From an uncultured Alphaproteobacteria bacterium (lineage in GTDB: Bacteria; Pseudomonadota; Alphaproteobacteria; Rs-D84): a stretch of 64,000 nucleotides of DNA. The notes below the pieces were generated by a model, which was not told the DNA's origin, did no database searches, and saw only the letters and a list, made by a program, of their open reading frames with translations. The position numbers were made by a program, and so were the translations under genes. Positions 3,620-31,848 of the stretch are shown in pieces (the stretch's first letter is position 1; every line of letters begins with the position of its first letter). The stretch covers positions 7,551 to 71,550 of the forward strand of contig CALXMN010000001.1 of assembly GCA_944389495.1 (NCBI GenBank). The letters run 5' to 3'.

Positions 3620-3898
3620 TTATTCTAATGGACAGATTTCGGTAAATTCATATGTGCCGGTTGTATCGGTGTATTCTGTGTTCGCCGGTGCGTACATTAT
3701 GCAAAAACCGTCGGGTGCGGTGGTCAGACAACTGGTCACCGTACCACCAGATAGGTAACCCGTCGGACAGGACCAAGGCGCGATAATTGTATCTTTTTCT
3801 TCGGCCTGTATATATCCATTTGGGCACGTGGTCAGTGGTTCGGCCGCAATTGCGGTGCGGAATATCGGTAATATACATAAAAACAAAGATTTTTTCAT
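3620..3898 (-). CDS. Small secreted Cys-rich protein (cassette 1, gene B)
   Basis: AGGAGG RBS; signal-like N-terminus; two CPxGY repeats; CIMYAPANTEY...CPLE shared with 31864-32142. Confidence 0.8.
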   Translation of the reverse strand: MKKSLFLCILPIFRTAIAAEPLTTCPNGYIQAEEKDTIIAPWSCPTGYLSGGTVTSCLTTAPDGFCIMYAPANTEYTDTTGTYEFTEICPLE

Positions 3899-3917
3899 AT
3901 GCATCCTCCTTGTCTGT

Positions 3918-4340
3918 TTAAATAGATTTTATCAGCGAATATCTGAATGGTTGATTTGCTGTTATTTGTTTTGCGCATTCTTCTGCGCATCGGCTGGTAC
4001 AGGAAAGGCTGTTGCTAAATGAAAATGCTTTTACCCAGTTTGACATAACGGGGTGAATTATTTTGCAGTAACAATGCCGATTGTTGTTTTGCGTTGTTGC
4101 ATCGATTTGCAGATGGGTTAGTGCGCCCGAGTTGTCTTCAGAAGAGCATCCTGCAATACCGTCGATAACCGTTTCTTTGTTGTTTGTGTCACAATTGGTG
4201 CGCCAATCATATGCACCTTTAAATACACCGGCACTGCATTTTGTAAGTCCGGAATCCAGTGCCACGCACTTTACAACGGCCGCGGCCGGCGGAATCGCGA
4301 CCACACACAACGCACCTGCGATTAGTAAATATTTTTTCAT
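3918..4340 (-). CDS. Small secreted Cys-rich protein (cassette 1, gene A)
   Basis: GGAGATAAGAAT-ATG; signal peptide; VVKCVAL and CYCK..P..S.W..C...CA..CA scaffold shared with 31411-31848. Confidence 0.85.
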   Translation of the reverse strand: MKKYLLIAGALCVVAIPPAAAVVKCVALDSGLTKCSAGVFKGAYDWRTNCDTNNKETVIDGIAGCSSEDNSGALTHLQIDATTQNNNRHCYCKIIHPVMSNWVKAFSFSNSLSCTSRCAEECAKQITANQPFRYSLIKSI

Positions 4341-4371
4341 ATTCTTATCTCCATTTTCTTTTGTTTTTTAT

Positions 4372-4547
4372 AAAGAAAAACCACCGAATTTTTTAGGTGG
4401 TTGGAGTTTAAGAACAATTGATCGAATTGCGTGGCTTATTCAATATATTCACCACACTCCAACCGCGCGGGTTGGATTTATTTTACGTCCGTATTACCAG
4501 ACGCGATCAATGGGTTCTTAAGCCCAATGTGGAAACACCCCACATCA
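4372..4547 (-). ncRNA. Structured leader RNA, C4-antisense-like element copy 1, ending in an intrinsic terminator
   Basis: Homologous to 31212-31388 and 19140-19296 with compensatory changes; AACCACC/GGTGGTT hairpin plus U-run; upstream TTGATT-16-TATTAT promoter-like sequence. Confidence 0.7.
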
Positions 4548-4733
4548 GTATTTATAATATCATACGCGCGTGGTAAATCAACAGTAAATGTTATTCATAA
4601 TCATTTGTTAATCTTGTTCAAGGCAATGTTTGCAGTAAATTTTATGCAAAACACTTGACTTTTTAACAAAATATGTTACTTTTGTAGAAACTTTTGAACA
4701 AAACGAACAAGAACAATAACAAGAGAAAGACAG

Positions 4734-5033
4734 ATGAGCAACATTGCAATCTTTCAAACCGGCGGCAAACAATATCGCGTAAAGGCGGGCGATTTTGTAA
4801 AGGTTGAACGCCTGAATGCCGAAGGTACGGTCGAATTCGACCAGGTTTTAATGCTGGACGATAAAATTGGCACACCGTTTGTTGACGGTGCGCGCGTTGT
4901 GGCCCAGGTTGTTGAACAAAAACGTGGGGACAAGGTTTTGGTGTTCAAGAAAAAACGCCGTCAAAACTATCGTCGCACACGCGGCCATCGCCAGTATATT
5001 ACGGTTTTAAAAATTACGGAAATCAAGGGTTAA
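4734..5033 (+). CDS. rplU: 50S ribosomal protein L21
   Basis: [12 protein letters not shown]...[16 protein letters not shown]. Confidence 0.98.
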
Positions 5034-19065: not shown

Positions 19066-19296
19066 AAAAAGGGCGGGAATGCCCGAATTTGTGGAGATAA
19101 GATGGACATTCCCACGGCAGGTTACATATATTTGTAACAGGTGGTTGGAGGTTCAAAACTATATCAAGCAAATAGCGGAACTTATTCGATATATTCGTTC
19201 CCCTCCAACCCGATAAGCAATTGGTTGGCAGGATTTTAACGCAACCCGGTGCGCGCCTGATAGAGGTTTTGATGCCTCGCATTGATTCCCAATGCC
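19066..19296 (-). ncRNA. Stand-alone C4-antisense-like structured RNA, copy 3, with 3' hairpin exposing an anti-RBS loop
   Basis: Same stems as copies 1 and 2 with compensatory changes, loop GAATATATCGAATAA, CCTCCAACCACC; extended -10 TGTTATAAT upstream; 12-bp terminal stem with G-U pairs only on the minus strand, followed by CCTTTTT. Confidence 0.7.
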
Positions 19297-19380
19297 ATAT
19301 TATTATAACACGTTTAATTTTGCATTTCCAGAAAATAAAATACAAAACTTGCAAATGCGGGATAAATATCTTAAAATTTA

Positions 19381-31051: not shown

Positions 31052-31065
31052 TAAAATTGCTTGTG

Positions 31066-31095
31066 AAAAAAATGGGGCGCTTGCCCCATTTTTTT
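31066..31095 (+). terminator. Intrinsic terminator
   Basis: AAAAAAATGGGGC-GCTT-GCCCCATTTTTTT. Confidence 0.85.
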
Positions 31096-31211
31096 GTTAT
31101 GGGTCACAGGGCGGTGGTATGTGTGGTGTATTTTTTTTTATTCTATGATGGGTTTGGTAACCGAATTTTATTATTCCTTGCGTTGGTATGGCTAATACGA
31201 TAATATAAATA

Positions 31212-31388
31212 CGTCGGTGGGTGTTCCGCCGATGGGCTTAAGAACCCTTTACACGCGTCTGATTCAGACGTTAAACAAAACGTCCAACCATAACGGTTGG
31301 AGTGTGGTGAATATATTGAATAAGCCACGCAATTCGTGTAATTGTTCTTAAACTCCAACCACCTGAAAATTTTTGGTGGTTTTTTCTT
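31212..31388 (+). ncRNA. Structured leader RNA, C4-antisense-like element copy 2, ending in an intrinsic terminator
   Basis: 43-nt and 25-nt blocks identical to copy 1 flanking a 3-nt variable loop; TTGCGT-17-TAATAT upstream; AACCACC/GGTGGTT plus U-run. Confidence 0.7.
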
Positions 31389-31410
31389 GCAGAAAAAAGG
31401 AGATAAGAAT

Positions 31411-31848
31411 ATGAAAAAATATTTATTAATTGCGGGTGCGTTGTGTATGGTCGCGATTTTGCCGGCGGCGGCCGTTGTAAAGTGCGTGGCATTAAAGCCC
31501 GGCGAAACCACTTGCAGTGGCCCCAGTTTAAGTCCGGGTACGAATGAATGGACAACAACGTGTACAACAAATGGTACAAATGTGCCAGTCAGTGGTATAA
31601 TCGGGTGTTCGTCCGTCCGCGGCAGTTATGTTGGGGCCACTGTTGATGAATTACCAACAAATGTAAGAGCAGATGAAACGGTATACTGTTGGTGCAAAAT
31701 GACAAGTCCCGCTGTATCAAAATGGACGTATCGTACATCTTGGAGCGATGCAGAAACTTGTTTGAACTCTTGTGCCCCTAATTGTGCAAATGCATTTTGG
31801 ACGACGGATGGATTCAGTGATGGAATGTTTTCGTCTTTGTATGATTAA
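31411..31848 (+). CDS. Small secreted Cys-rich protein (cassette 2, gene A)
   Basis: GGAGATAAGAAT-ATG; MKKYLLIAGALC..VVKCVAL; CWCKMTSPAVSKW; paralog of 3918-4340. Confidence 0.85.
   Translation: MKKYLLIAGALCMVAILPAAAVVKCVALKPGETTCSGPSLSPGTNEWTTTCTTNGTNVPVSGIIGCSSVRGSYVGATVDELPTNVRADETVYCWCKMTSPAVSKWTYRTSWSDAETCLNSCAPNCANAFWTTDGFSDGMFSSLYD

What the first reader, a model, noticed from the sequence alone, without database searches (positions are those of the whole stretch)
4341..4547. Leader copy 1: expression platform with terminator and built-in anti-RBS
On the minus strand GGTTGGAGT can pair either locally with upstream TCCAACC or with downstream ACTCCAACC. The latter overlaps the 5' arm of the AACCACC/GGTGGTT+U terminator, giving mutually exclusive terminator and antiterminator folds. 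In addition, GTTCTTAAACTCC can pair with the gene's own RBS GGAGATAAGAAT (GGAG/CTCC plus TAAGAAT/GTTCTTA), which would explain why that RBS is identical in both cassettes (a b2-like site).
Basis: partly seen in the sequence, partly recalled or inferred. Interest (0 to 1): 0.7.

Follow-up and report, generated by a model that had tools for sequence, protein, structure and literature searches.

The report
Multi-copy terminator-switch leader RNA
The stretch is one copy of an uncatalogued, about 190-base folded RNA leader that can adopt two shapes, one of which stops transcription and hides the ribosome-binding site, and that sits in front of dozens of surface-protein genes in tiny-genome gut bacteria; what flips it is still unknown.

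Summary
They belong to a complete leader RNA: promoter, hairpin P1, a long-range helix P2, arms P3-P5, an intrinsic terminator and the ribosome-binding site.

The genome (905 kb) holds 22-25 copies. Relatives hold 1-48 each, and 12 of 149 other sampled alphaproteobacterial families have it. No Rfam 15 family matches.

Covariation supports both the terminator fold and the rival antiterminator fold (GGUUGGAGG with CCUCCAACC), so the switch idea stands.

The "anti-RBS" is half right. The CUCC core does co-vary with the Shine-Dalgarno sequence across lineages.

Best model: CCUCC is a hub. When free, the terminator forms and the hub can mask the ribosome-binding site. When it is paired with GGAGG of P4, transcription reads through.

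The trigger is unknown. Searches of this genome found no GGDEF, RelA/SpoT, Hfq or CsrA. c-di-AMP synthase does not co-occur with the leader. No expression data cover the leader.

Earlier notes of this scan describe the same leader family on other Enterousia genomes.

The parts
4554..4581 (-). Sigma-70-like promoter TTGATT-16-TATTAT with TG before the -10; implies a transcript start near 4547
   Evidence: A -10-like AT(A)AAT precedes P1 in the family alignment.
4527..4545 (-). P1 hairpin (AUGUGGG / UCCACAU) with pentaloop GUGUU; starts within a few bases of the transcript start
   Evidence: 7 of 7 pairs show changes on both sides; loop consensus is GNNUU.
4504..4525 (-). 5' strands of long-range helix P2: GGG (a), CUUAAGAAC (P2b) and AUUGAUCG (P2c), separated by CC
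   Evidence: Cognate against non-cognate duplex energy is -17.2 against -8.9 kcal/mol, and the cognate is best in 15 of 20 copies. P2b is 98.5% and P2c 84.9% paired, with all 15 pairs co-varying.
4486..4503 (-). P3, a variable hairpin arm (CGUCUG / CGGACG)
   Evidence: A hairpin is predicted in 90 of 102 copies. The region is 17-65 nt long with no conserved loop.
4477..4485 (-). A-rich junction UAAAAUAAA between P3 and P4
   Evidence: Conserved A-run in the alignment consensus.
4456..4476 (-). P4 hairpin: b (UCCAACC, 4470-4476) with b' (GGUUGGAGU, 4456-4464). b' is the strand that switches partner.
   Evidence: P4 is 95.3% paired and 7 of 7 pairs co-vary.
4429..4457 (-). P5: stem GUGUGG/CCACGC around the conserved GAAUAUAUUGAAUAA. 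In relatives this is a symmetric internal loop RAAUAA/RAAUAA with an optional distal hairpin.
   Evidence: 5 of 5 stem pairs co-vary; loop variants are listed.
4408..4424 (-). 3' strands of P2: CGAUCAAU (P2c, 4417-4424) and GUUCUUAA (P2b, 4408-4415). Together with CAAUU (4425-4429) the same bases can form the alternative local hairpin P6.
   Evidence: For P6, the pair 356:381 is UA:62/AU:34.
4399..4407 (-). b2 (ACUCCAACC), the hub: an anti-Shine-Dalgarno core CUCC plus the first 4 bases of the terminator. It pairs with b' (antiterminator), with the RBS, or possibly with GGG of strand a.
   Evidence: antiterminator covariation; Shine-Dalgarno covariation; pairing with strand a is compatible only.
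4370..4402 (-). Intrinsic terminator: AACCACC / GGUGGUU, 10-nt loop, then UUUUUCUUU
   Evidence: The stem is 90.4% paired and 6 of 7 pairs co-vary; 7 of 7 co-vary on the second set. It adds about -8.7 kcal/mol in stepwise folds.
4338..4352 (-). RBS GGAGAUAAGAAU and the ATG of the 140-aa secreted cysteine-rich protein gene (3918-4340), followed by a 94-aa secreted protein gene (3620-3904)
   Evidence: Neither protein matches a Pfam family.
31204..31413 (+). Copy 2 of the leader (82% identical in the pairwise alignment), with compensatory changes in P1 and P2c, before a paralogous two-gene cassette
19117..19306 (-). Copy 3 of the leader. It has a variant 3' end and no gene downstream.

Best explanation
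This is one member of a large, uncatalogued family of cis-acting 5' leader RNAs of gut Alphaproteobacteria. It gates expression of envelope and secreted-protein genes by a two-state fold.

In the closed state, P4 (b:b') and the roughly 16-bp long-range helix P2 are formed. The C-rich hub b2 (CCUCCAACC) is then not held by b'. The terminator AACCACC/GGUGGUU plus U-run forms, and most transcripts end about 30-35 nt before the RBS. In transcripts that read through, the CUCC core of the hub can mask the Shine-Dalgarno sequence. In some copies the neighbouring P2b 3' strand adds to this masking.

In the open state, b' leaves b and pairs with b2 over 9 bp. P2c is replaced by the small hairpin P6. 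Four bases of the terminator stem are taken away and the anti-Shine-Dalgarno core is occupied, so transcription continues.

Shown by sequence and covariation: both folds, the terminator, and the Shine-Dalgarno/hub complementarity. Inferred: that the folds control termination and translation, and that the closed state is the default. The closed state is predicted to be the more stable one in 76 of 102 copies. The factor that favours the open state is not identified. My best guess is a small ligand, an ion or an unrecognised protein acting on the P2c-P3-P4-P5 junction.
For: 1. The family is real and large. There are 22 nhmmer hits and 25 covariance-model hits in a 905-kb genome. It was found in 24 of 24 same-genus genomes, 8 of 16 genomes of other families of the order, and 12 of 149 other families of the class.
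2. No Rfam 15 family matches. There are no hits at gathering score, and only chance-level hits with E of 0.03 or more.
3. The closed-state helices co-vary on two alignments.
4. The antiterminator and P6 co-vary on alignments that were not fitted to them.
5. The central strand co-varies with both of its partners.
6. The long-range P2 helix is copy-specific. Cognate duplex energy is -17.2 against -8.9 kcal/mol, and 67 of 80 copies rank in the best tenth.
7. The Shine-Dalgarno sequence co-varies with the hub core across lineages.
8. The full-length fold of copy 1 pairs UGGAG with CUCCA.
9. The leader always lies between a promoter-like site and a gene start.
Against: 1. No transcript data exist. 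Two metatranscriptome runs gave no contigs over the leader, so termination at the U-run is unproven.
2. In thermodynamic models, enforcing the antiterminator does not open the Shine-Dalgarno sequence on average. Mean unpaired probability is 0.32 against 0.38 unconstrained. The reason is that the released b strand also carries CUCC in this genus.
3. Masking by the hub is predicted with probability above 0.5 in only 19 of 84 copies.
4. A 16-bp closing helix is unusually strong for a ligand-tuned switch.
5. The P5 loop motif differs between subfamilies, which argues against a single conserved ligand pocket.
6. The alignments were fitted to the closed-state model, which inflates its pair counts.
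7. The copies are related, so the shuffle tests overstate significance.
Confidence: 0.72

Rival explanations
1. Classical metabolite or ion riboswitch of the OFF type. The four-way junction closed by P2c is an aptamer. Ligand binding locks P4 and P2, giving termination and RBS masking. Without ligand, b2 invades P4.
For: The architecture is aptamer-like, with a multi-helix junction, a conserved A-rich junction strand and a conserved P5 internal loop. The two folds are predicted to be close in energy, with a mean difference of -4.4 kcal/mol on about -50. No Hfq or CsrA was found and there is no NusG paralogue. There is no conserved leader peptide.
Against: The regulated genes are surface and secreted proteins, HTH regulators, glycosyltransferases and a methylase, not enzymes or transporters of one pathway. 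The P5 motif is not conserved across subfamilies. Second-messenger enzymes do not fit: no GGDEF or RelA/SpoT was found, and DAC was not found in leader-rich genomes G017 (22 matches, 97% complete) and G030 (25 matches, 30; 96% complete).
Confidence: 0.3
2. Protein-dependent antitermination or attenuation. An unrecognised RNA-binding protein, possibly dimeric and bound to the symmetric RAAUAA/RAAUAA loop of P5 or to strand b, shifts the balance between P4 and the antiterminator.
For: The internal loop is symmetric. The regulon is large, at 25-48 sites per genome, like a dedicated regulator's. HTH regulator genes are themselves under the leader. One cold-shock-domain protein is present.
Against: No candidate was identified. 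Hfq and CsrA were not found, the ANTAR search was uninformative because no control genome matched, and there is only one NusG. The P5 loop is not universal.
Confidence: 0.25
3. Constitutive attenuator whose setting is genetic, not physiological. Each copy is hard-wired ON or OFF by how well its two P2 strands match. Mutation or gene conversion between copies resets it.
For: P2 strands are copy-specific. Three copies on one contig share an identical 3' strand but have different 5' strands. In this genome, 3 of 20 copies (C3:76235, C3:49108, C7:4721) have mismatched P2 and are predicted to favour the antiterminator by +9 to +15 kcal/mol. Downstream genes are the kinds often subject to phase variation (that link is recalled, not tested).
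Against: Most copies keep a well-matched P2 through compensatory change, which implies selection for the closed fold in each copy. Conservation of the antiterminator in well-matched copies implies that they too can open.
Confidence: 0.12
4. The leader's short terminated product is a stand-alone small RNA acting in trans, and the downstream gene link is secondary.
For: Copy 3 in the window (19117-19306) has a promoter and a leader but no downstream gene.
Against: A start codon preceded by a Shine-Dalgarno-like motif was found within the 130 nt read downstream in 87 of 102 copies examined. No free complementary targets or mimics were found elsewhere in the genome. The Shine-Dalgarno covariation argues for cis action.
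Confidence: 0.05

Closest known systems
Terminator/antiterminator expression platforms of transcriptional riboswitches (general class; recalled knowledge)
   Same: A cis 5' leader with a structured upstream domain. One strand has two exclusive partners, and one of those pairings removes the 5' arm of an intrinsic terminator.
   Different: No Rfam family matches and no ligand is known. The switching strand is an internal arm (P4) rather than the closing helix. A 16-bp copy-specific long-range helix clamps the closed state. There are 25-48 copies per sub-megabase genome.
Translational riboswitches and leaders with the anti-Shine-Dalgarno / anti-anti-Shine-Dalgarno arrangement (recalled; the search listed only general papers, none read)
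   Same: A C-rich anti-Shine-Dalgarno element that can pair with either the RBS or an upstream G-rich strand.
   Different: Here the same C-rich element is also the start of the terminator and the 3' half of the antiterminator, so one hub serves both levels. Masking is predicted to be strong in only a minority of copies.
c-di-GMP riboswitches before surface-protein, pilus and flagellar genes in Clostridioides difficile (recalled, not tested)
   Same: A many-copy leader RNA that controls envelope and adhesin-type genes through termination.
   Different: No GGDEF domain was found in this genome and there is no sequence or structure match to those families.
c-di-AMP (ydaO, RF00379) riboswitch
   Same: The genome encodes a DAC-domain cyclase, and the P5 loop has two-fold symmetry.
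   Different: RF00379 was not found in this genome. DAC was not found in leader-rich genomes G017 and G030.
T-box leaders
   Same: Leader size and terminator/antiterminator logic.
   Different: No Rfam T-box hit even at E up to 10. The antiterminator is an uninterrupted 9-bp helix without the bulge that receives the tRNA 3' end (sequence). No specifier-like conserved loop was seen.
Leader family noted earlier by this scan on other Enterousia genomes (e1-4730463, e1-3590191, e1-1210677, e1-1112997)
   Same: By their descriptions, the same ~150-235-nt terminator-switch leader before secreted-protein and XRE genes.
   Different: Those are unchecked AI notes and I did not see their alignments.

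Membership tests
Any Rfam 15 family | Covariance-model score at or above the family's gathering threshold | tested here: not met
   In the whole window only two tRNAs reach threshold. Permissive scans of both leaders give only sub-threshold hits, which largely reflect the terminator hairpin.
Riboswitch (generic) | Cis-located 5' leader with mutually exclusive folds that affect a terminator or an RBS | tested here: met
   Both folds co-vary. The position between promoter and start codon is consistent.
Riboswitch (generic) | Conserved aptamer core shared by all members | tested here: inconclusive
   An A-rich junction and a RAAUAA loop are conserved in the genus, but P5 is replaced by another motif in other families.
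Riboswitch (generic) | Direct, protein-free binding of a small ligand | not testable with these tools
   Needs in-line probing, ITC or a structure.
Intrinsic (Rho-independent) terminator | GC-containing hairpin directly followed by a U-run, on the transcribed strand | tested here: met
   A 7-bp stem with 4 G-C pairs followed by UUUUUCUUU. The stem co-varies. The consensus scan missed it only because the loop is 10 nt.
Intrinsic (Rho-independent) terminator | Transcripts actually end at the U-run | tested here: inconclusive
   RNA-run contigs did not cover the leader.
Leader-peptide attenuator (trp type) | Conserved short ORF in the leader whose translation selects the fold | tested here: not met
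   Only 15 of 102 leaders have an ATG ORF of 8 or more codons behind a Shine-Dalgarno-like motif, and these sit at scattered positions.
c-di-AMP riboswitch (ydaO) | Match to RF00379, and co-occurrence with a diadenylate cyclase | tested here: not met
T-box | T-box sequence with a bulged antiterminator, and a specifier loop | tested here: not met
   No Rfam hit; the antiterminator helix is uninterrupted.
ANTAR-, Hfq- or CsrA-dependent leaders | The cognate protein is encoded in the genome | tested here: not met
   Hfq and CsrA were not found in a 96.8%-complete genome. The ANTAR search matched in no control genome, so it says nothing.

The most novel reading that the evidence does not exclude
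The leader is a recombination-read "barcode lock" for contingency genes. Each copy carries a private 15-bp address, the two strands of P2, that keeps its gene terminated. When gene conversion between paralogous cassettes places a breakpoint between the two strands, they no longer match, the antiterminator wins, and the newly converted surface-protein gene is switched on. This would be RNA-level phase or antigenic variation without promoter inversion or repeat slippage.
Probability: 0.1. Interest if true: 0.9.

Novelty: new member of a known kind. Interest (0 to 1): 0.62.

Why it matters
If the model holds, a single RNA family governs a large share of the surface and secreted proteome of an uncultured group of very small-genome gut bacteria. 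These bacteria are found in chickens, ruminants, horses and humans. The family also occurs at lower copy number in other Alphaproteobacteria.

It offers a compact natural design in which one C-rich hub controls both transcription termination and ribosome access. It also poses a clear open question, the identity of the trigger, in organisms where no Hfq, CsrA, GGDEF or RelA/SpoT was found.

The alignments and the covariance model built here are sufficient to seed a new RNA family entry.

Tried and rejected
1. Expression evidence. One run search and one read-laying were made. The two RNA runs gave only a few low-depth contigs on neighbouring genes and none over the leader or cassette, so they say nothing about termination.

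2. c-di-AMP as ligand. DAC is present here, but RF00379 was not found and DAC was not found in leader-rich relatives. Rejected as unlikely.

3. c-di-GMP or ppGpp. No GGDEF or RelA/SpoT was found.

4. A trans-acting mimic or antisense RNA. The b'/b2 9-mer occurs outside leaders once, in a coding-like region. Searches for complements of each copy's P2 strands gave only self hits, paralogues and a few hits with 1-3 mismatches inside coding-like sequence.

5. A kissing contact between the P1 loop and the terminator arm or the P5 loop. The listed sequences show no co-variation.

6. Helix P2a (GGGG with CCUC). It is compatible in two registers but has no real covariation. The local alternative GGGG/CCC has modest support.

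7. A helix around the co-varying pair 73:354. Only that single pair co-varies.

8. GNRA capping of P3. It is present in only 10 of 102 copies.

9. Literature. Searches for "Enterousia" (16 papers) and for structured-RNA terms listed nothing that describes this RNA. In PMC12306168 I read only the passages returned by a term search; "riboswitch" does not occur in it.

Full report
**What is at the coordinates**

On the minus strand, 4341-4547 lies between a divergent gene that starts at 4734 (+) and a 140-aa signal-peptide, cysteine-rich ORF (3918-4340, -). A 94-aa secreted ORF (3620-3904) follows.
- b' GGTTGGAGT, 4456-4464
- b TCCAACC, 4470-4476
- b2 ACTCCAACC, 4399-4407
- terminator AACCACC 4396-4402 and GGTGGTT 4379-4385, then the U-run 4370-4378
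- GTTCTTAAACTCC, 4403-4415
- RBS GGAGATAAGAAT, 4341-4352

A promoter-like TTGATT-16-TATTAT at 4581-4554 places the transcript start near 4547. The finding therefore spans one whole leader. The 178-nt RNA folds far better than its shuffles (z = -5.99).

**It is a family, not a pair**

- blastn, nhmmer and a covariance model find 22-25 copies in the 905-kb genome. Three are in this window, the third at 19117-19306 (-).
- The model matches in 24 of 24 genomes of the same genus, with 1-48 matches each, and in 8 of 16 genomes of other families of the order.
- It also matches in 12 of 149 genomes drawn one per family from the rest of the class. Those genomes are 0.9-2.5 Mb and have 1-7 matches each.
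- A strict pattern scan of public genomes hit about 870 stored stretches by the tool's estimate. The titles are nearly all Candidatus Enterousia or uncultured gut Alphaproteobacteria or "Rickettsiales" MAGs from chicken, ruminants, horse and human. A few are labelled otherwise, which may be mis-binning or chance.
- Rfam 15 has no matching family.

**Architecture**

I hand-curated a structure on 20 own-genome copies and re-aligned 102 distinct copies to it. The elements are:
- P1 hairpin at the 5' end
- long-range helix P2, made of P2b (7-8 bp), a CC/U internal loop, and P2c (8 bp)
- variable arm P3
- an A-rich junction
- P4 (b:b')
- P5 with conserved GAAUAU...GAAUAA
- the terminator

This fold is 92.8% paired against 67.1% in shuffles and 39-45% when partners are slid. 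Changes on both sides occur in 41 of 45 pairs. A second alignment with 20 sequences from other families gives 92.6% against 65.3%, with 40 of 45 pairs.

The alignments were fitted to this model, so I also ran a test that needs no alignment. I scored duplex energy between each copy's 5' and 3' P2 segments against those of other copies. The cognate mean is -17.2 against -8.9 kcal/mol, and the cognate is the best partner in 15 of 20 copies. In the larger set 67 of 80 copies rank in the best tenth.

**The switch**

The alignment was not fitted to the pairing of b' with b2. Even so, that 9-bp helix plus a small hairpin P6 (which reuses the P2c 3' strand) is 91.1% paired against 80.7% in shuffles and 35-48% when slid. 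Changes on both sides occur in 10 of 14 pairs. On the second set it is 90.4% against 77.8%.

The same b' column co-varies with b (AU:63/GC:19) and with b2 (UA:57/CG:19/UG:11). Lineages use UUGGAGG, UCAGGAG, CUGGAAGG or CUGGGAGG together with matching b and b2.

The antiterminator takes 4 of the terminator's 7 stem bases. P6 co-variation (UA:62/AU:34) indicates that a fold without P2c is also under selection.

**The anti-RBS**

Cognate pairing between the P2b 3' strand plus CUCC and the RBS window is stronger than non-cognate pairing (-8.83 against -7.31 kcal/mol, 0 of 5000 permutations). Only 20 of 80 copies rank in the best tenth.

Copies 1 and 2 pair UUAAGAA-type sequence. Others pair UCUAAA or GCUUGAA, and further examples come from other genomes.

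The strongest evidence concerns the core. The Shine-Dalgarno sequence follows the leader's own C-rich core:

| Shine-Dalgarno motif | Leaders with the matching core | Leaders with CCUCC |
|---|---|---|
| GGAAG | 11 of 31 (core CUUCC; at least seven genomes) | 1 of 61 |
| GGGGG | 0 of 31 (core CUUCC) | 24 of 61 |
| GGGAG | 4 of 7 (core CUCCC) | 3 of 61 |

The ribosome's own anti-Shine-Dalgarno sequence is expected to be constant (established knowledge, not tested here). If so, this pattern points to pairing between the RBS and b2.

For copy 1 the full-length minimum-energy fold keeps P2 and pairs UGGAG with CUCCA around the terminator hairpin. GGAG has an unpaired probability of about 0.02.

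Against a general claim:
- Across 84 copies the mean unpaired probability of the Shine-Dalgarno sequence is 0.38 in the leader context and 0.68 for the tail alone.
- Pairing to b2 exceeds 0.5 in only 19 copies.
- Enforcing the antiterminator does not open the site on average (0.32). In this genus the released b strand also carries CUCC.

**Energetics and default state**

On transcripts cut before the terminator's 3' arm, the closed fold is predicted to be more stable than the antiterminator fold in 76 of 102 copies, by a mean of -4.4 kcal/mol. For copy 1 the values are -54.5 against -46.2. When only P2b, P2c and P4 are enforced, the antiterminator is favoured in 14 of 102 copies.

In this genome, three copies with mosaic, mismatched P2 strands favour the antiterminator by +9 to +15 kcal/mol: C3:76235, C3:49108 and C7:4721. 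Stepwise folding of copy 1 forms P2 as soon as its 3' strand appears, and then forms the terminator. I therefore take the closed, terminating state as the default, and the open state as requiring help or a mismatched P2.

**What it controls**

In this genome the downstream genes are mostly small secreted cysteine-rich proteins without a Pfam match. Two larger secreted proteins and three short genes read as HTH regulators also follow leaders; two of the three match Pfam HTH_3 and the third has no Pfam match.

In other families the first downstream genes are:
- two outer-membrane beta-barrel proteins
- GT2 and GT10 glycosyltransferases
- an N6 DNA methylase
- TM2 and DUF805 membrane proteins
- a hydrogenase-like chemoreceptor
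- lipoproteins
- several proteins with pilin-like N-termini (read by eye, no Pfam match)

The common theme is the cell envelope.

**The trigger**

It was not found.
- No GGDEF, RelA/SpoT, Hfq or CsrA was found in a 96.8%-complete genome.
- The ANTAR search was uninformative.
- There is one NusG and one cold-shock-domain protein.
- A DAC cyclase is present, but RF00379 was not found.
- DAC was not found in leader-rich relatives such as G017 (22 matches) and G030 (25 matches, 30).
- There is no conserved leader ORF.
- No trans copy of the switching strand or of the P2 addresses was found.
- The P5 loop is a symmetric RAAUAA/RAAUAA internal loop in most members but is replaced by a different motif in some families. 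That weakens the case for a single conserved ligand pocket.

**Limits**

- There is no expression evidence.
- The copies are related, so shuffle-based counts overstate independence.
- Energies are nearest-neighbour predictions without pseudoknots or tertiary contacts.
- Start codons were called by a simple rule.
- The organism name rests on the titles of related public records and on earlier notes of this scan. The window's own record is unnamed.
- Background on Enterousia comes from passages of PMC12306168 returned by a term search. These cover the order Rs-D84, genomes under 1 Mbp, and missing amino-acid, nucleotide and fatty-acid synthesis.

**Relation to earlier notes of this scan**

Several notes describe what appears to be the same leader family on other Enterousia genomes. 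I used them only as leads.

Noticed in passing
window 19117-19306 (-), and downstream to about 18930: A third leader copy with a promoter-like -10 but a different 3' end: a long GGGAAUG.../...CAUUCCC hairpin and several U-runs. No gene lies downstream; the next feature is the end of a convergent + strand gene. It is either an orphaned leader or a stand-alone RNA. The inserted hairpin may relate to the invertible element described in note e1-1112999.
   Followed up: partly
alignment A3, columns 73 and 354 (in copy 1 about 4521 and 4428): The base just after GGGG of strand a co-varies with the base just after P5 (UA:53, CG:31, UG:9). Both states occur within this one genome. The two positions are too far apart to pair in the closed fold. 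Neighbouring pairs do not co-vary. This may be a tertiary contact or a third conformer.
   Followed up: partly
G000 C3:37898, C3:48978, C3:76361: Three leader copies share an identical 3' half, from P5 through the terminator, and two of them also share the start of the gene. Their 5' halves differ, so in two of them the P2 strands no longer match. These look like recombination mosaics with a breakpoint inside the leader.
   Followed up: partly
G000 C2:110289-110639 (+): A diadenylate cyclase (DAC) domain gene in an alphaproteobacterium. The control genomes Caulobacter and E. coli lack it. It was found in 19 of 24 same-genus genomes but in only 1 of 16 genomes of the other families of the order.
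   Followed up: partly
G000 C4:16549-16755 (-) and C4:16842-17033 (+): Two leaders lie back to back about 90 bp apart. One drives a secreted cysteine-rich protein gene and the other a 75-aa HTH_3 regulator gene.
   Followed up: no
G000 C2:18361-18674 and C9:14976-15297: Two leader copies are followed by the same decayed gene start. The ATG and first codons of the signal peptide are missing, and the C9 copy also lacks the 5' half of the leader.
   Followed up: no
loci L255, L257, L259-L261, L058, L105 (other families): In these members P5 carries a different conserved insert (AUGUYCAGGC, a tetraloop, then GCYAAAG) in place of the RAAUAA pair. The family therefore has at least two P5 subtypes.
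   Followed up: no
window 31054-31095: A strong bidirectional intrinsic terminator (AAAAAAAUGGGGCGCUUGCCCCAUUUUUUU) lies between the upstream gene and the promoter of leader copy 2. It shows that hairpin-plus-U terminator sequences occur in this genome.
   Followed up: no
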